Under the pieces are notes generated by a model that did not search any database, was not told the DNA's origin, and worked only from the letters and a program-made list of their open reading frames with translations. A program made the translations under genes and the position numbers. This document shows positions 21,668-27,906 of a stretch of 64,000 nucleotides of DNA, piece by piece (position 1 is the first letter of the stretch; the number at the start of each line of letters is the position of its first letter). Source of the DNA: a virus. Location of the stretch: the IMG/VR virus record IMGVR_UViG_3300045741_000389, positions 4,802 through 68,801 of that record, one strand, 5' to 3'.

Positions 21668-21858
21668 GATTCCTTCATCAAAACCAACTCAGGTTCAGTG
21701 AACGATTCCTCACGCAGCCGGGTCTTAGCATCAAACCAGACGCAGACAACCCGCCCGGCTGGGTGGTTGGCAAACCACGACCGTGAGGGAGGTTCGACGA
21801 ACCTCACGGTCATGGCGGGGCCGCCTGACTGTAGACGGCAGATGTCCCCGACCTTCAC
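21664..21858 (-). CDS. YodC/DUF2158-family small protein
   Basis: KVGDICRLQSGGPAMTV..VVCVWFD..F.EPEL. Confidence 0.8.
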   Translation of the reverse strand: MKVGDICRLQSGGPAMTVRFVEPPSRSWFANHPAGRVVCVWFDAKTRLREESFTEPELVLMKES

Positions 21859-23291
21859 AGCGCCTCAGCCAACGCCACGTAGTCGAGCACAGCCGGCGCC
21901 CAGCCGCTGATGGTGGTCCAGGCTTTGGCGTTACCGACGCCCTTCGAGTACGACGCCACGTTCATCACGTAGCCTCGGCCCAGCGGCGGCGCGATGCCGT
22001 CGTTGCTCTGCTCGTCGGTGATCACCAGCGTGCGGTCGGCCGTGGTCCGACGCTTCAGCTCGCGCAGCGCGGCGGCCAGCATCGTGCCAGAGTGCGGTTG
22101 GCTCTCGCGCAACATCCGGGCGAGCGTGAACCCACGGAACTGAGGGTTGAGGAACACCAGGTTGTTGCTGAATGTCCACACCTCGGCCGACTCGCACGCC
22201 TCGCGCGCCAGCATGGCCAGTCCCTCGGCCGCGTCCAGGCGCAGCGTCGCGAGCTGGTCGCTCCGGCCCTTGCCCTGCGCCAGCGCGGTGTTCATCGAGC
22301 CAGAGACGTCGACGAGGATAACCGTCTTGCCCGGCAGCTTGACCCGGCCCTCGACGGCGCGCAGCATCAGCGGCTCGAGCATGCCCTCGGACCAGGGGCA
22401 CACGCGCGCAGCCGTGCGGAACTGGAAGGGCAGGATGCCGTCCAGCTTGCCCTTGAGCGCCAGGTCCTGGCCGTACTCGGTCAGCAGCCTGTGGCTGACG
22501 CCCAGCTCGTCCATCTTGCGCAGGTTACGCAGCCACGCCAGCCCGCCCAGCTTGGCGCTGGCCAACAGATCCTCGAACACCGCGCGCCGCTCGGCGTCGC
22601 CCTTGGCGGCCGACAGCTTGACCTCCCAGGTCTCGGGGGCGGGGAGCTCGTTCTCACAGAGCTGATCGAGCACTGAGCCTGGCGAACGGAGCACCTTGCC
22701 GGCGCCCAGCACCTTGCCGGCCTTGTCCTTGTAGACGCGACCCTTGAAGTCACTCGCCTCGAACCCGTCCTTGGCTCGTGACGGGTGCGTCAGGAACGCA
22801 ACGTCGCGCAGCTTGACCTCGGCCGACTGGTGGTCGTTCTTGGCCAAGGCGTAGCCATCGAACCGCGCGAAGGCAGCAGCCAGGCCCTTCTTGAGCTGGG
22901 CCGGCAGCGTCTTCTTGCCGTCGTTCGTGGCCCAGTACAGCTGCACCAGCTCGGCCAACTGGTCGGCGCGGGTGCAGATCTGGGGGATGAGGTCCTTGAC
23001 CGTGGCCGGGCCGGGGTTGCGCCCCGGGTGCCGCAGCAGCTCACGCAGCAGGAGCAGCGGCACGTGGCGCAGCTGGTGCACCGTCCGCGCCTCGACGGCC
23101 ACGGCCGCGACGAAGTCGTAGGGGCACAGAGACACGAGCCGTTGAATGCGCGCGGCGGTGGTCTCGCCGTTTTCGTAGAAGCTGTCCTCCCACAGGAGGC
23201 AACAGGCAACGGTGCGCCGCAGCTCGAGCATCGCCTCGGCGGTGGTCTTCACCGGCGCCACCTTGACTTCCTTCTTCGCGTTCAGCTTCAT
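21855..23291 (-). CDS. rsr: Ro60-related TROVE domain RNA-binding protein
   Basis: TROVE motifs (LWEDSFYE, RADQLAE, F.RFD.Y.LAK, VKLRDV.FLTHP, PETWE, LRNLR, LPFQF) plus a C-terminal vWA MIDAS (VDVSGSM, VITDEQ). Confidence 0.92.
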   Translation of the reverse strand: MKLNAKKEVKVAPVKTTAEAMLELRRTVACCLLWEDSFYENGETTAARIQRLVSLCPYDFVAAVAVEARTVHQLRHVPLLLLRELLRHPGRNPGPATVKDLIPQICTRADQLAELVQLYWATNDGKKTLPAQLKKGLAAAFARFDGYALAKNDHQSAEVKLRDVAFLTHPSRAKDGFEASDFKGRVYKDKAGKVLGAGKVLRSPGSVLDQLCENELPAPETWEVKLSAAKGDAERRAVFEDLLASAKLGGLAWLRNLRKMDELGVSHRLLTEYGQDLALKGKLDGILPFQFRTAARVCPWSEGMLEPLMLRAVEGRVKLPGKTVILVDVSGSMNTALAQGKGRSDQLATLRLDAAEGLAMLAREACESAEVWTFSNNLVFLNPQFRGFTLARMLRESQPHSGTMLAAALRELKRRTTADRTLVITDEQSNDGIAPPLGRGYVMNVASYSKGVGNAKAWTTISGWAPAVLDYVALAEAL

Positions 23292-23437: not shown

Positions 23438-23447
23438 AAGAATTGTA

Positions 23448-23575
23448 GCGGGGATCAGGCCGATCGGGCAACGCGCGCGTCCTAACCACTAGACGACGAC
23501 ACCCGGAGGGTGCCGGCAGGATTCGAACCTGCGTTTCGCCCTTGGATGGGAAGTAACCCGTTCTATCGCCACCGC
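23448..23575 (-). ncRNA. Y RNA-like unit 2 with permuted tRNA module (UCC-containing loop)
   Basis: UGGCGAUA..CUGAUCC stem; T arm GCAGG-UUCGAAU-CCUGC; acceptor CGGCACC/GGUGUCG closed by a loop; D arm GUCUAGUGGUUAGGAC. Confidence 0.82.
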
Positions 23576-23585
23576 AAACTCTTAC

Positions 23586-23798: not shown

Positions 23799-23934
23799 AG
23801 GTGGGGATCAGGACGATCGGGCACGTTAGTGCTCTACCAACTGAGCTACAGTACCCCTTACGGAGCACTGACAGGGCTCGAACCTGCGACCACTCGATTA
23901 CAAGTCGAAGTAACCCGGTCTATCGCCACCACCT
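23799..23934 (-). ncRNA. Y RNA-like unit 5 carrying a complete circularly permuted tRNA-Thr(UGU)-like cloverleaf
   Basis: Order on the RNA: anticodon arm UUCGA-CUUGUAA-UCGAG, UGGUC, T arm, acceptor stem capped by GUAA, UA, D arm GCUCAGUUGGUAGAGC. All of it sits inside the Ro-type stem. Confidence 0.85.
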
Positions 23935-25628: not shown

Positions 25629-25815
25629 GACGAACTCCTTTCGGTTGCAGGTAGCGAAGACGGCGCAGCTGGAGCTGGAGGTACCACCGCGCGTGGGGAT
25701 CCCGCCGGAGCGGCAGGTAGTGGCGGACGAGCATGCGCAGTTTCTCGCGCTCGTTCTGCTCGCTGACAGCGATGCGCAGCGCTGTGACGACTGTGCTGAG
25801 ATTGGGGGCCTTCAC
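25621..25815 (-). CDS. Hypothetical basic protein
   Basis: 64 aa, overlaps both neighbours. Confidence 0.55.
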   Translation of the reverse strand: MKAPNLSTVVTALRIAVSEQNEREKLRMLVRHYLPLRRDPHARWYLQLQLRRLRYLQPKGVRHV

Positions 25816-26510
25816 GTTGCGATCCTCCGCGCCTCGGGCACCGTACCCTCGCCCACGCCCCGGTGCACGGAGTGCTTGGAGCCCTCTTCGACGCCGCGCT
25901 GGTAGTCGTCCATCGTGCCGATGCGCTTCGTCGGGTCGTAAGGCTTCTTGTCCGGGTTCGTCATGCGGTCCTTCACGCCCAGCGCAATCGCCTCCTTCTG
26001 CGCAGGCTCGAGCACCAGCTCGGTGATCTGCTTGTGGATCGTGACGGTGAAACCGACGAGGAAGGTTTCACCCGAGGCCATCTTCTGCCCGCGCGTCAGG
26101 TACGGATTCAGCGTGGCGACGTACCGCGCCCGCGCCTTCACCGCGTTGCGGTGGATCACCTCGTACGCATAGGTGCAGGTCTCCACCTGCCCGTTCAGGC
26201 CGACGAAGACGATCTCGGCCAGCATGCGGCCGGTCTTCCAGTAGTGGATGAAGTACGAGCAGCCGAAAGCACGCCCGAGGATGACGGCCAGCGCCAGCTC
26301 CCACACGGCCGGGCGGCGCCAGGAGCCGGTCTTGGCACGGCCCTCGCCGACCTCCGCCTTGTGCACCGAGCCCATGCTGATGTTGTGCTCGCGCATCAAC
26401 GCCTGCGCCTGCCGGAGCGCCATTGCGGCCATGTTCGGATCCGCACGGTCGTCGGCGGAAAGGGCGAGGCACTTCTTGATCTTCTGGATGATGCGGTCGT
26501 TGTCGTTCAC
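25812..26510 (-). CDS. DUF2786-domain protein
   Basis: RIIQKIKKCLALS..A.MALRQAQALMREHNI; GTGA-coupled start. Confidence 0.8.
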   Translation of the reverse strand: MNDNDRIIQKIKKCLALSADDRADPNMAAMALRQAQALMREHNISMGSVHKAEVGEGRAKTGSWRRPAVWELALAVILGRAFGCSYFIHYWKTGRMLAEIVFVGLNGQVETCTYAYEVIHRNAVKARARYVATLNPYLTRGQKMASGETFLVGFTVTIHKQITELVLEPAQKEAIALGVKDRMTNPDKKPYDPTKRIGTMDDYQRGVEEGSKHSVHRGVGEGTVPEARRIAT

Positions 26511-26746
26511 AGCACATCCTCCGCCTTGCGCACACCCTTGGCCACCAGATGCCCAAACGCGAGTGCCGCGCCGGAACTGTTGAACTCCGGCTTCTGCAGC
26601 TTCTTGTTGACGACAGCGCGGTACACATCGTCGCCGAAGGTGACTGACTCGTAGACCGCCTTGCTTTCGAAAGCCCCACACGCGGGGCACCGTTCGTCGC
26701 TGGGCTTCAGCGCTGCGTGGCAGTGGAAGCAGACAAACCGTTTCAT
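26507..26746 (-). CDS. Zinc-ribbon protein
   Basis: CFHC..CPACG; GAAGGAG RBS. Confidence 0.7.
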   Translation of the reverse strand: MKRFVCFHCHAALKPSDERCPACGAFESKAVYESVTFGDDVYRAVVNKKLQKPEFNSSGAALAFGHLVAKGVRKAEDVL

Positions 26747-26823
26747 CTCGGCTCCTTCAGGGTTGGGAGGGTATTGTGTGAGTCCTCGTCAGCCCGGAGC
26801 AAGGCCCCGGGCCGGCGGGGAAG

Positions 26824-27906
26824 TTAGGCGGCCACCAGCTTCAGCAGGTCGCCGGCTTGCGTCTCGAGCGCCACGCGCTCCATCTGCCACGGGACCGAGC
26901 GAGCCAGCGCGGTGACGGCGGTGACGGCGTCCCACAGCGTTTCCACCGGGCGCTGCTCGTCCGCCTGATGCGCCTGCTGGATGCGCTCGACCATCTTCGC
27001 GCCGAAGCGCTTCTCGAGGAAGGCTTCCACGTTCTCGATCTTCTGCTTCTGCGCAGCGAGCAGGGCGGACTGAATGCCGGCCACCGAGCTGTCCGCGTAG
27101 GCGGTCAGCGCCGGAGCGATCTCACGCAGGAACCGGTCGGGCGCAGCGGAGGTGTGGCGGATGCTGATCTCCTGGATCTCCTCCGCACCCCAGACGATGC
27201 GGTTCATGCACACGTAGTCGAAGAGGAACGACTTGACATTCAGCGAGCAGGCGCCCACTTCCGACTGCCACAGGAAGAACCCGCGCGCCAGCGCACCGGT
27301 CTTGCCGTCGCGGCGGTTGGGCAGTTCGATGCGGTTCTTCTCGTCCGCCAGGAAGACGAACATGTCGCGGTCGCCCGCGTACAGCGTGGTGTTCGCCTTG
27401 GTGATGGGGACGTCCTTGCCGAACTCCCCCGGCACCTTGAAGCGGCCAGTGGCGCCGTCGCCGAAGCGCTCGACGAGGGAGTCGATGACGTCCGCATTCC
27501 AGATGCGCCCGTAGCCGGCACCGGTCGCCGCGCGCAGGCCCATCTCCTTGTCGAGCAGCAGCTTGGTGTCCTGCGCCGACTTGGAGTACAGGCCGTAGTT
27601 GATCAGGTCGGCCGCGAGCGAGGAGGGCAGCTCACGCAGGTACTGGGCCGGCGCCGGGCGGGCGAGGTAGCACAGCTGGTTGAAGGCCCAGTAGGTCGGC
27701 GTGTAGCCGACGCCCGCCTCGCCCACGATCTTCAGGCCCTTGTTGTCCTCGTCCGCCAGCGCGTGGATCGTGTGGGTGTTGACGGTGGCTTCCTTCGACC
27801 GGGCGCGCAGCGCGGCGAAGTGCGCCTGCATCTCGGTGAGGCTGGTGAAGCGCTCGTCGTCCGGGCGCGACGCCCACTGGGCGGAGGCTTGGGTCAGGAT
27901 GGTCAT
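26824..27906 (-). CDS. DUF932-family protein
   Basis: WASRPDDERF, LYAGDRDMFVFL, GFFLWQSEVG, YVCMNRIVWG..IRH. Confidence 0.75.
   Translation of the reverse strand: MTILTQASAQWASRPDDERFTSLTEMQAHFAALRARSKEATVNTHTIHALADEDNKGLKIVGEAGVGYTPTYWAFNQLCYLARPAPAQYLRELPSSLAADLINYGLYSKSAQDTKLLLDKEMGLRAATGAGYGRIWNADVIDSLVERFGDGATGRFKVPGEFGKDVPITKANTTLYAGDRDMFVFLADEKNRIELPNRRDGKTGALARGFFLWQSEVGACSLNVKSFLFDYVCMNRIVWGAEEIQEISIRHTSAAPDRFLREIAPALTAYADSSVAGIQSALLAAQKQKIENVEAFLEKRFGAKMVERIQQAHQADEQRPVETLWDAVTAVTALARSVPWQMERVALETQAGDLLKLVAA

What the first reader, a model, noticed from the sequence alone, without database searches (positions are those of the whole stretch)
23799..23934. Y RNA carrying a complete circularly permuted tRNA with an intact Thr(UGU) anticodon arm
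Seen on the - strand, in order: Ro stem 5' strand; anticodon arm UUCGA-CU UGU AA-UCGAG (anticodon at 23900-902); variable loop UGGUC; T arm GCAGG-UUCGAGC-CCUGU; acceptor 3' strand CAGUGCU; CC-GUAA-GG cap; acceptor 5' strand GGUACUG; U8-A9; D arm GCUC-AGUUGGUA-GAGC; A26; Ro stem 3' strand. All four tRNA arms are present. The chain is opened at the 26/27 junction and the acceptor end is sealed by a GNRA tetraloop with no CCA. Known: in described YrlA RNAs the Ro-binding stem replaces the anticodon arm. Inference: this unchargeable but anticodon-complete mimic could be a decoy for anticodon nucleases or other tRNA-targeting defence toxins, or a sink for ThrRS or t6A enzymes. It could also be a precursor processed into a real tRNA, as with permuted tRNA genes.
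Basis: partly seen in the sequence, partly recalled or inferred. Interest (0 to 1): 0.88.

Follow-up and report, generated by a model that had tools for sequence, protein, structure and literature searches.

The report
Phage Y RNA carrying whole tRNA mimic
A phage small RNA that partners the Ro60 protein carries a complete but sealed, rearranged tRNA look-alike, anticodon loop included; many phages and soil bacteria have the same design, and it may serve as bait for enzymes that attack tRNAs.

Summary
Window 23799-23934 (- strand) reads: Ro-stem 5' strand, UUAC, a 5-bp/7-nt anticodon hairpin (UGU at 23902-23900), UGGUC, T arm, a 9-bp acceptor hairpin capped by GUAA, UA, D arm, A26, linker, Ro-stem 3' strand. 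Re-permuted in silico, ARAGORN calls it tRNA-Thr(UGU).

It is one of six tandem Y-like RNAs directly upstream of a Ro60/TROVE gene in a 68.8-kb phage genome.

The design is widespread: more than 119 viral contigs and 80 cellular Ro loci, mostly Acidobacteriota. Across homologues:
- the hairpin stem covaries and the loop is usually 7 nt;
- the loop follows tRNA rules (U33, R37, G36 paired with G37);
- nucleotides 26 and 44 covary as in tRNA;
- positions 34-35 are the most variable; in seven 96%-identical orthologues, anticodon plus nt 37 switch as a block.

The hairpin sits where Chen et al. 2014 drew the "V" stem-loop of YrlA. So this is a YrlA-class Y RNA with a re-read, under-appreciated feature, not a new RNA class.

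The acceptor end shows no charging signals, so a real tRNA precursor is unlikely. Function is untested. The best guess is a Ro60-bound decoy or competitive inhibitor for anticodon-loop-directed enzymes.

The parts
23914..23933 (-). Ro-binding stem, 5' strand (GGUGGUGGCGAUAGACCGGG). It holds GGCGAUAG, close to the published GNCGAAN0-1G motif.
   Evidence: Read. It pairs with 23800-23821. The Ro-proximal helix covaries in homologues (helix 2). The motif is quoted from Chen 2014, section 6.
23910..23913 (-). UUAC linker, the conserved 'YUAY' of YrlA RNAs
   Evidence: [quoted passage not shown] GTTAC was fixed by the patterns. In cellular loci it reads GTTAC, GATAC or GTTCC.
23893..23909 (-). Anticodon arm: stem UUCGA/UCGAG, loop C32 U33 U34 G35 U36 A37 A38 (anticodon UGU at 23902-23900)
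   Evidence: All 5 stem pairs change on both sides in 77 distinct homologues, with 92.8% of cells paired. 64 of 76 loops are 7 nt. The Rfam tRNA model aligns this arm as an anticodon arm.
23888..23892 (-). Variable loop UGGUC (U44 to C48)
   Evidence: Position 44 covaries with 26, and 48 with 15.
23871..23887 (-). T arm GCAGG-UUCGAGC-CCUGU
   Evidence: The helix covaries and 99.7% of cells are paired.
23849..23870 (-). Closed acceptor hairpin: 7 acceptor pairs plus 2 extra pairs, capped by a GUAA tetraloop (23861-23858). No CCA.
   Evidence: The helix covaries (helix 5). Its length varies from 4 to 9 bp among homologues.
23830..23848 (-). U8 A9, D arm GCUC-AGUUGGUA-GAGC, A26
   Evidence: G15:C48 and A26-U44 are consistent with tRNA tertiary pairs.
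23800..23829 (-). Linker CUAACGUG, then the Ro-binding stem 3' strand (CCCGAUCGUCCUGAUCCCCACC)
   Evidence: The 3' signature UGAUCC is shared by all six units of the array.
23444..23578 (-). Second tRNA-bearing Y RNA of the array. It has a Gly/Glu-type D arm and an imperfect anticodon-like hairpin around CCA; ARAGORN miscalls it tRNA-Trp.
   Evidence: YrlA 21.2 bits, full length; R1 54.4 bits.
21855..23291 (-). Ro60/Rsr homologue (TROVE plus vWA), the presumed protein partner
   Evidence: Pfam TROVE E=1.1e-8. phrog_850 'RNA-binding protein' E=5.4e-30. Homologues lie on the same strand next to the units in 32 of 42 viral loci and in all 80 cellular loci, which were selected by Ro.

Best explanation
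SHOWN: This is a YrlA-class Y RNA of a phage. It is transcribed from a tandem array of six Y-like RNAs just upstream of the phage's Ro60 gene. Its 5' and 3' ends form the Ro60-binding stem. Its distal module is a complete, covalently closed tRNA look-alike.

INFERRED FROM COVARIATION: The hairpin that the literature calls the 'V' stem-loop is an anticodon arm sitting in its native place. It probably stacks under the D stem through a 26-44 pair. The Ro stem hangs off the 26/27 break by two single-stranded linkers.

INFERRED FUNCTION: The RNA is not charged. Bound to Ro60, it presents a genuine anticodon loop, probably modified at position 37, to proteins that read tRNA anticodon loops. The most likely role is a decoy or competitive inhibitor for anticodon-loop-directed nucleases or toxins in phage-host and inter-bacterial conflicts. 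On this view the anticodon triplet sets which enzyme is baited, and several units per array cover several targets.
For: Identity:
- A TROVE gene lies 508 nt downstream on the same strand.
- Rfam YrlA matches model positions 24-84 at E=1.4e-5.
- Ro is the only neighbour conserved across loci: 89 of 152 loci, with the next family in 12.

Hairpin is real:
- In 77 distinct units from contigs found without fixing the distal stem, all 5 pairs show double-sided changes. The inner two pairs have no unpaired cell (GC 34, CG 24, UA 5, AU 2; and AU 28, CG 25, UA 11, GC 2).
- 64 of 76 loops are 7 nt.

tRNA rules in 70 distinct stem-loops:
- U33 in 69, R37 in 70, Y32 in 67, A38 in 61.
- G37 goes with G36: 14, 2, 3 and 51 in the four cells, Fisher p=3.8e-10.

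Native placement:
- G26-A44 in 44 units, A26-U44 in 27, G-U in 7, A-A in 2 (p=1e-12). This holds within both Levitt classes.
- 15:48 is GC in 59, AU in 29, AC in 2.

Whole-tRNA likeness:
- ARAGORN calls the expected anticodon in 89 of 97 re-permuted units.
- The closest E. coli sequences are tRNA-Lys genes, 85.7% over 35 nt in most listed rows, 88.6% in the best.

Anticodon matters:
- Positions 34 and 35 have the highest entropy, 1.76 and 1.87 bits.
- In seven orthologous acidobacterial units of 96% identity, 6 of the 16 variable columns lie in the loop. GUU-A switches to CAG-G or CGG-G as a block: 4 of 8 differences between L169 and L170.

Not a charged tRNA: the acceptor is sealed and variable.

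Decoy precedent:
- Hughes 2020 proposes YrlA as a competitive inhibitor of an anticodon nuclease (passage).
- PARIS AriB cuts tRNA-Lys(UUU), Thr(UGU) and Asn(GUU), with determinants U36AAUC, U39 and U16 (abstract and sections 22-23).
- This unit has U36AAUC followed by G41, and U16 U17.
- GUU and UGU are the commonest triplets, 17 each of 118.
Against: - No experiment bears on function, and no RNA data set holds this phage.
- Thermodynamic folding does not favour the hairpin.
- 5 of 70 distinct loops start with A34, which is rare in real bacterial tRNAs. This fits drift as well as mimicry.
- Many sister units lack the hairpin or have odd loops. Only 27 of 115 units in loci reached solely by the stem-free pattern are perfect 5/7/5 in the strict register. 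Only 50 of 125 cellular matches have 7-nt loops.
- The UAAUC site belongs to one stem subclass. UUCGA/UCGAG is 3 of those 27.
- No defence, anti-defence or RNA-repair gene is linked. The phage has no RtcB, no Rnl2-type ligase and no tRNA. Second-tier neighbours are unrelated. RtcB occurs in 1 of 5 acidobacterial genomes and not beside Ro.
- All association tests ignore phylogeny.
- The alignments behind searches were fitted to the model.
Confidence: 0.4

Rival explanations
1. Plain YrlA scaffold. The hairpin is only the structural 'V' stem-loop of the published model, and the triplet drifts neutrally. The RNA just tethers or gates Ro60 with an exoribonuclease such as PNPase. Nothing reads the anticodon.
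For: - Published model of YrlA (Chen 2014, section 6).
- RYPER-type complexes, including a phage Ro60 with host PNPase (passages).
- Unnatural A34 triplets in 5 of 70 loops.
- Sister units lack the hairpin (L001:2513-2645, L002:2523-2658). The window's own second unit has an imperfect one.
- The hairpin is weak thermodynamically.
Against: - A purely structural hairpin does not explain conserved Y32, U33, R37 and A38, or the G36-G37 coupling.
- It does not explain the block switch of anticodon plus nt 37 in 96%-identical orthologues.
- A 5-nt class-I variable loop follows the hairpin, and 26-44 covary. Both fit an anticodon arm, not a variable arm.
Confidence: 0.25
2. Adaptor or guide. The anticodon loop selects a specific partner (an aminoacyl-tRNA synthetase, a modification enzyme, or a tRNA or mRNA through loop-loop or codon pairing). 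That partner is brought to Ro60 and its nuclease, or the enzyme is titrated as a sink.
For: - The same loop rules and anticodon switching as above.
- The body type follows the anticodon class in some units: Gly(UCC) and Glu(CUC/UUC) loops sit on GUCU...GGAC-type D arms with 4-nt variable loops.
- YrlA is a substrate of TruB and DusA in Salmonella (Chen 2014 passages).
Against: - Class-II identities (Ser, Leu, Tyr anticodons) sit on class-I bodies, so whole-tRNA identity mimicry is incomplete.
- No partner gene is linked.
- A 3-nt guide is weak.
Confidence: 0.15
3. Precursor of a working tRNA. RNase P and 3' trimming open the acceptor cap, CCA is added, and the two-piece or religated molecule is charged and used in translation.
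For: - M. smegmatis YrlA, which has a 7-bp acceptor stem, is cut by RNase P and gains CCA in vivo (Chen 2014, section 8 passages).
- All four arms are present, and re-permuted units pass ARAGORN (89 of 97).
- The phage has no ordinary tRNA gene.
Against: - The acceptor helix is 4-9 bp, 9 bp here. 37 of 55 simple hairpins end in tetraloops, including UUCG and GNRA.
- 1:72, 2:71, 3:70 and 73 are not conserved within an anticodon class.
- Ser, Leu and Tyr anticodons lack long variable arms.
- The Ro stem would remain attached at 26/27.
- No ligase gene is present.
Confidence: 0.07
4. Chance resemblance, or a decayed tRNA gene next to a Y RNA.
For: Rfam gathering thresholds report nothing in the window.
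Against: The same permuted order recurs in 42 and then at least 119 viral contigs and in 80 cellular loci, with covariation in every helix.
Confidence: 0.01

Closest known systems
YrlA (Y RNA-like A), Rfam RF02553; Chen et al. 2014 (PMC4201824); Salmonella structure, Wang et al. 2018 preprint (10.1101/312249)
   Same: - Encoded just upstream of Ro60 on the same strand.
- The 5' and 3' ends form the Ro stem, with a GNCGAA-like motif.
- YUAY, T arm, closed acceptor stem-loop and D arm come in this order.
- Levitt 15:48 covaries.
- A stem-loop ('V') upstream of T is described for many members.
   Different: - Here and in relatives that stem-loop has every mark of an anticodon arm: 5 bp, 7-nt loop, U33, R37, the 36-37 rule, a 5-nt variable loop after it, and 26-44 coupling.
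- The solved Salmonella RNA has no such loop, and its Ro-proximal stem takes the anticodon-stem position.
- The Rfam model has no hairpin there and scores this unit 35.2 bits against a gathering score of 69. It reaches gathering in 0 of 17 related loci.
Deinococcus radiodurans Yrn1
   Same: A Ro60-bound Y RNA that can be drawn with a potential 'anticodon arm' of 5 bp (Chen 2014, section 6).
   Different: There the loop is 6 nt, the D arm is doubtful, the arms have a different orientation, and no V arm is present. The authors consider it independently evolved.
Phage-encoded tRNAs that overcome tRNA-targeting defences (T5 tRNA-Lys, Thr and Asn against PARIS AriB; Belukhina et al. 2025, PMC12409363)
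   Same: Phage-borne RNAs with the anticodon arms of the targeted tRNA species. The window unit carries UGU and U36AAUC.
   Different: Those are ordinary chargeable tRNAs that replace cleaved host tRNAs. This RNA is sealed at the acceptor end, opened at 26/27 and tied to Ro60. It could only act as bait or inhibitor, and no test has been done.
Circularly permuted tRNA genes of the red alga Cyanidioschyzon merolae
   Same: The 3' half of the tRNA is encoded upstream of the 5' half.
   Different: As recalled, those precursors are circularised and processed into normal tRNAs. Here the acceptor ends are joined by a short stable tetraloop, the termini form a protein-binding stem, and no maturation signals are conserved.

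Membership tests
YrlA-type bacterial/phage Y RNA | Encoded within about 4 kb of a Ro60/TROVE gene, on the same strand | tested here: met
   The unit lies at 23799-23934 (-). The TROVE ORF is at 21855-23291 (-). The criterion is quoted from Chen 2014, section 5.
YrlA-type bacterial/phage Y RNA | GNCGAAN0-1G motif near the 5' end (putative Ro contact) | tested here: inconclusive
   The window has GGCGAUAG at 23927-23920, matching 7 of 8 positions. Relatives read GGCGAAGA, GGCGUAGA or GGUGUAGA.
YrlA-type bacterial/phage Y RNA | Conserved T-like and D-like stem-loops with an acceptor-like stem-loop between them; YUAY upstream | tested here: met
   Rfam alignment to model positions 24-84. Covariation of the T, acceptor and D helices. 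UUAC at 23913-23910.
YrlA-type bacterial/phage Y RNA | Reaches the gathering score of Rfam RF02553 (69 bits) | tested here: not met
   35.2 bits, a partial match. 0 of 17 related loci reach it. The model lacks the hairpin and has a different Ro-stem consensus. This is a limit of the model rather than of kinship.
YrlA-type bacterial/phage Y RNA | Bound by Ro60/Rsr in vivo | not testable with these tools
   No RNA or binding data exist for this phage.
Functional tRNA | Cloverleaf with four arms, 7-nt anticodon loop and conserved tertiary pairs | tested here: met
   Met only after circular re-permutation: ARAGORN calls tRNA-Thr(tgt). G15:C48 and A26-U44 are present.
Functional tRNA | Free 5' and 3' acceptor ends with discriminator and CCA (encoded or addable), and conserved synthetase identity pairs | tested here: not met
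   The acceptor is sealed by 2 extra pairs plus GUAA. Helix length is 4-9 bp, and 1:72, 2:71 and 73 are not conserved within an anticodon class. The Rfam tRNA model scores 18 bits against a gathering score of 29 on the native order.
Permuted tRNA gene (processed to a normal tRNA) | Conserved processing signals at the permutation junction and at the acceptor ends | tested here: inconclusive
   No conserved acceptor-end signal was found. The termini form the Ro stem. Processing itself cannot be tested without RNA data.

The most novel reading that the evidence does not exclude
Ro60-Y RNA arrays, in phages and in bacteria such as Acidobacteriota, are sets of re-targetable anticodon-loop decoys. 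Each sealed tRNA mimic baits one class of anticodon-directed nuclease or toxin. Its specificity is reset by swapping the anticodon together with nucleotide 37. This would finally give the YrlA tRNA-like domain its function.
Probability: 0.3. Interest if true: 0.85.

Novelty: new variant of a known kind. Interest (0 to 1): 0.62.

Why it matters
What the tRNA-like domain of bacterial Y RNAs is for has been open since 2014. The solved example lacks an anticodon loop, so the domain has been treated as a three-armed mimic with an unknown partner.

The data here change that picture:
- A large, mostly unannotated or mis-annotated subfamily carries a full anticodon arm that obeys tRNA loop rules. Rfam's YrlA model misses these RNAs, and GenBank labels one 'tRNA-Thr'.
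- The triplet turns over quickly, even as a block with nucleotide 37.
- Whatever reads these RNAs therefore probably reads the anticodon loop.

That makes the competitive-inhibitor or decoy idea directly testable with known tRNA-targeting defence nucleases. It also ties Ro60 RNPs to the current picture of tRNAs as a main battleground between phages and bacteria.

A practical consequence: annotation pipelines can call these RNAs as tRNAs, so phage and metagenome tRNA counts may include them.

Tried and rejected
- **Single-sequence folding** did not recover the cloverleaf. The anticodon 5' strand UUCGA can mispair with the T loop. I relied on comparative evidence instead.
- **Brute-force re-permutation** over all cut points with ARAGORN was noisy. 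I replaced it with a rule-based parse.
- **Three-register hairpin test** (118 of 161) has a 26% shuffle background. I therefore give the strict-register figure.
- **Pairing of UUAC with CUAA** at the junction was considered. The 5' side was fixed by my search patterns, so covariation could not be judged.
- **Gene-neighbourhood clustering** found no partner other than Ro.
- **RNA-repair and tRNA genes:** RtcB, Rnl2-type ligase and tRNA searches of the phage were negative. RtcB was found in 1 of 5 acidobacterial genomes and not beside Ro.
- **Promoter and terminator scan** gave nothing useful.
- **The look-up of sequencing runs**: no RNA holder listed.
- **Literature:**
  - Searches (6 papers; 13 papers) turned up no description of a full anticodon arm in YrlA.
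  - The two Wolin-lab reviews (PMC10870794, PMC6047535) are not held.
  - Supplements are closed. Supplemental Fig. S1 and the tables of Chen 2014 may already show these hairpins.
- **The PARIS link** is only a lead. The UAAUC site belongs to one stem subclass.
Full report
**1. What is in the sequence**

Read on the - strand, window 23934-23799 gives these elements in order:
- a 5' strand GGUGGUGGCGAUAGACCGGG
- UUAC
- a hairpin UUCGA-CUUGUAA-UCGAG, with UGU at 23902-23900
- UGGUC
- the T arm GCAGG-UUCGAGC-CCUGU
- a 9-bp hairpin CAGUGCUCC-GUAA-GGGGUACUG
- UA
- the D arm GCUC-AGUUGGUA-GAGC
- A
- CUAACGUG
- a 3' strand CCCGAUCGUCCUGAUCCCCACC that pairs back to the 5' end

Standard annotation tools see little here:
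- ARAGORN on the native sequence finds no tRNA at this place. Its only call in the window, 'tRNA-Trp' at 23508-23573, lies inside a sister unit.
- Rfam at gathering thresholds reports nothing in the whole window.
- In E-value mode Rfam gives YrlA at 35.2 bits (gathering 69), E=1.4e-5, over model positions 24-84, which are the T arm, acceptor and D arm.
- The tRNA model gives 18 bits and aligns the hairpin, UGGUC and the T arm as anticodon arm, variable loop and T arm.
- After circular re-permutation in a script, ARAGORN calls a 76-nt tRNA-Thr(tgt).

**2. Setting**

The window is part of a 68,801-bp virus record rated complete by CheckV.
- The ORF at 21855-23291 (-) is a Ro60 homologue. Pfam TROVE gives E=1.1e-8 with a sub-threshold vWA-type (VWA_CoxE) hit. 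phrog_850 gives E=5.4e-30.
- Between it and the preceding gene lie six tandem units. Each is closed by a terminal stem with RUGGCG near the 5' end and UGAUCC near the 3' end.
- Their coordinates are 24108-24037, 23935-23797 (the finding), 23790-23664, 23655-23584, 23578-23444 and 23437-23312.
- No convincing promoters or terminators separate them. This fits co-transcription and processing, as reported for M. smegmatis (Chen 2014, passage), but that is inference.
- The phage has no RtcB, no Rnl2-type ligase and no canonical tRNA.

**3. Relatives**

- blastn against cultured phages found 11 Xanthomonas/Xylella phage records matching 23914-23826 at about 79%.
- In phages Tabio and 10KY502B the match is the last unit of a similar array in front of a TROVE gene.
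- The hairpin there is identical except for the triplet: GUU in Tabio, UGU in 10KY502B. GenBank annotates the latter as 'tRNA-Thr'.
- The exact hairpin context, with NNN for the triplet, occurs in 42 IMG/VR contigs. 32 of these 42 loci have a Ro ORF on the same strand (phmmer E<1e-5). Most of the rest are short loci.
- A covariance model (R1) built from 32 units found further units in the same loci (137 matches at E<=1 in 38 sources) and 78 matches at E<=1e-7 in 100 new loci.
- A Ro protein profile retrieved 80 cellular loci, mostly Acidobacteriota on large contigs. R1 found 125 matches there, all upstream of Ro and on its strand.
- The design is therefore not phage-specific.
- Rfam's YrlA model reaches its gathering score in 0 of 17 such loci. 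The tRNA model marginally hits 5 units in their native order, which explains the mis-annotation.

**4. Is the hairpin real, and is it an anticodon arm?**

*Covariation*
- In the first, stem-fixed set the hairpin could not vary. The T, acceptor, D and Ro-proximal helices covary strongly: 93.0% of cells paired against 74.1% in shuffles, covariation score 0.583 against 0.195, 0 of 500 shuffles as high.
- In the independent set A3 (77 distinct rows) all five hairpin pairs show changes on both sides and 92.8% of cells pair. The two distal pairs never fail. That alignment was fitted to the model.

*Alignment-free check*
- 68 of 161 distinct units have a perfect 5-bp stem and a 7-nt loop in the strict register. 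Shuffles gave a mean of 2.0 and a maximum of 8.
- In loci reached only by the stem-free pattern the count is 27 of 115, spread over 11 different stem sequences.

*Loop length*
- The loop is 7 nt in 64 of 76 rows of A3. Two of those rows are partial, tRNA-like matches.
- It is 7 nt in 50 of 125 cellular matches.

*Loop composition*
- Over 70 distinct stem-loops: U33 in 69, purine 37 in 70, pyrimidine 32 in 67, A38 in 61.
- G37 accompanies G36: 14 with both, 2 with G36 only, 3 with G37 only, 51 with neither; Fisher p=3.8e-10.
- That is the pattern of real tRNAs: A37 after U36, G37 after G36.

*Flanking and tertiary features*
- The hairpin is followed by a class-I variable loop ([A/U]GGUC).
- The nucleotide after the D stem covaries with the first variable-loop nucleotide: G26-A44 in 44 units, A26-U44 in 27, G-U in 7, A-A in 2 (p=1e-12). 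This holds within both Levitt classes.
- 15:48 is G:C in 59, A:U in 29, A:C in 2.
- In tRNA the 26-44 pair sits between the D stem and the anticodon stem. I therefore infer that the hairpin occupies the anticodon-arm position and that the Ro stem is tethered at the 26/27 break by UUAC and by about 8 nt (CUAACGUG).

*Whole-tRNA likeness and caveats*
- Re-permuted units are called with the expected anticodon in 89 of 97 cases.
- None of these tests corrects for shared ancestry.
- Single-sequence energetics argue the other way.

**5. What varies**

- Positions 34 and 35 are the most variable of the 39-nt anticodon-to-T segment, at 1.76 and 1.87 bits. Position 36 is U-biased.
- Among the 41 closest pairs, 32 of 105 differences fall in the triplet, against 8.1 expected if uniform.
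- 38 different triplets occur among 118 units. GUU and UGU lead with 17 each, then GCU with 9 (loose criterion).
- The clearest case is seven orthologous acidobacterial units of 96% mean identity. 16 of 137 columns vary, and 6 of them lie in the loop. L169 and L170 differ at 8 positions, 4 of which are the anticodon plus nt 37 (GUU-A against CAG-G). Others carry CGG-G.
- Four adjacent changes that keep the 36-37 rule, in an otherwise nearly fixed RNA, look like selected re-targeting rather than drift.
- Body and anticodon match only in part. UCC, CUC and UUC loops sit on GUCU...GGAC-type D arms with 4-nt variable loops, as Gly and Glu tRNAs do. Ser, Leu and Tyr anticodons sit on class-I bodies.

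**6. The acceptor end**

- The outer helix is 4-9 bp, most often 6-8.
- 37 of 55 simple hairpins end in tetraloops. UUCG and GNRA tetraloops (GCAA, GUAA, GAAA) are the commonest types.
- Pairs 1:72, 2:71 and 3:70 and nucleotide 73 are not conserved within an anticodon class.
- No CCA is encoded.
- M. smegmatis YrlA can be opened by RNase P and receive CCA (Chen 2014), so opening cannot be excluded. But nothing here suggests charging.

**7. Relation to the literature**

I read sections 5 and 6 of Chen et al. 2014 in full, and other passages by search.
- YrlA RNAs have T, D and acceptor-like stem-loops.
- A conserved YUAY begins the V loop.
- That is the position of the present hairpin (UUAC, then the hairpin).
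- A sense primer in their Methods shows that the M. smegmatis RNA reads ACUUC-UAAUG-GAAUGGUC there, a 3-bp, 5-nt-loop remnant.

Passages read in other papers:
- The Salmonella structure paper states that YrlA 'lacks the anticodon loop'.
- Hughes et al. 2020 suggest that the YrlA tRNA-like domain might be 'a competitive inhibitor' of an anticodon nuclease.
- A phage Ro60 binds two phage Y-like RNAs and host PNPase.
- Belukhina et al. 2025 (abstract, sections 22-23) show that PARIS AriB cuts tRNA-Lys(UUU), Thr(UGU) and Asn(GUU). U36AAUC, U39 and U16 are the determinants.
- The window unit has U36AAUC followed by G41, and U16 U17. Its nearest E. coli relatives are tRNA-Lys genes.
- This is a lead only. 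The UCGAG stem is one subclass (3 of 27 in the unbiased strict set).

Limits of the literature check:
- My two searches found no paper describing a full anticodon arm in YrlA.
- Two reviews are not held and supplements are closed.
- The claim of novelty is therefore limited to what I could read.

**8. Verdict**

- The RNA is a YrlA-class Y RNA whose 'V' stem-loop is, by every comparative test available here, a genuine anticodon arm.
- The subfamily is large, occurs in phages and bacteria, and is poorly captured by Rfam.
- It is not a new kind of RNA, and part of the functional idea is already in print.
- The loop rules, the 26-44 coupling and the block switching of anticodon plus nt 37 appear to be new. 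They point to an anticodon-reading partner.
- I put a decoy or inhibitor role at about 0.4, a plain scaffold at 0.25, an adaptor or sink at 0.15 and a tRNA precursor at 0.07.

Noticed in passing
window 24108-23312 (- strand): Six tandem Y-like units lie upstream of the Ro gene. All have RUGGCG near the 5' end and UGAUCC near the 3' end. Two are 72-nt minimal units (24108-24037, 23655-23584). Two are about 126-nt units with only a T-arm-like hairpin (23790-23664, 23437-23312). About 100 nt (24036-23936) carry no motif.
   Followed up: partly
window 23444-23578 (- strand): The second tRNA-bearing unit has a Gly/Glu-type D arm (GUCU...GGAC) and an imperfect hairpin that reads as either a 6-nt or a 7-nt loop around CCA. 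ARAGORN reports part of it as a D-armless 'tRNA-Trp' (23508-23573).
   Followed up: partly
L002 2985-3052 (Xanthomonas phage 10KY502B, OQ622092.1): GenBank annotates the native-order Y RNA as tRNA-Thr. Rfam's tRNA model also marginally passes its gathering score on 5 such units (L002, L169, L227, L046, L007). Phage and metagenome tRNA counts may therefore include Y RNAs.
   Followed up: partly
L015 8922-9081 and L030 5422-5579: Variant units keep the Ro stem, anticodon arm and T arm but have no recognisable D arm. Something else follows the T arm.
   Followed up: no
window 23905-23909 and 23878-23882: The anticodon-stem 5' strand UUCGA repeats the T-loop sequence UUCGA. The UUC belongs to a GGUUACUUC motif shared by nearly all units, including those without a hairpin. 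The predicted MFE structure pairs the anticodon-hairpin region with the T-arm region instead of forming the hairpin.
   Followed up: partly
L161-L240 (cellular Ro loci, mostly Acidobacteriota): Chromosomal loci carry one to five R1 matches (E<=0.001) each, upstream of Ro. RtcB was present in only 1 of 5 genomes checked and not beside Ro, unlike the Salmonella rsr-yrlBA-rtcBA operon.
   Followed up: partly
window 25812-27906 (- strand): The upstream genes carry DUF2786/DUF7168 and DUF932 domains, both often seen on mobile elements. Their relation to the Ro module is unknown.
   Followed up: no
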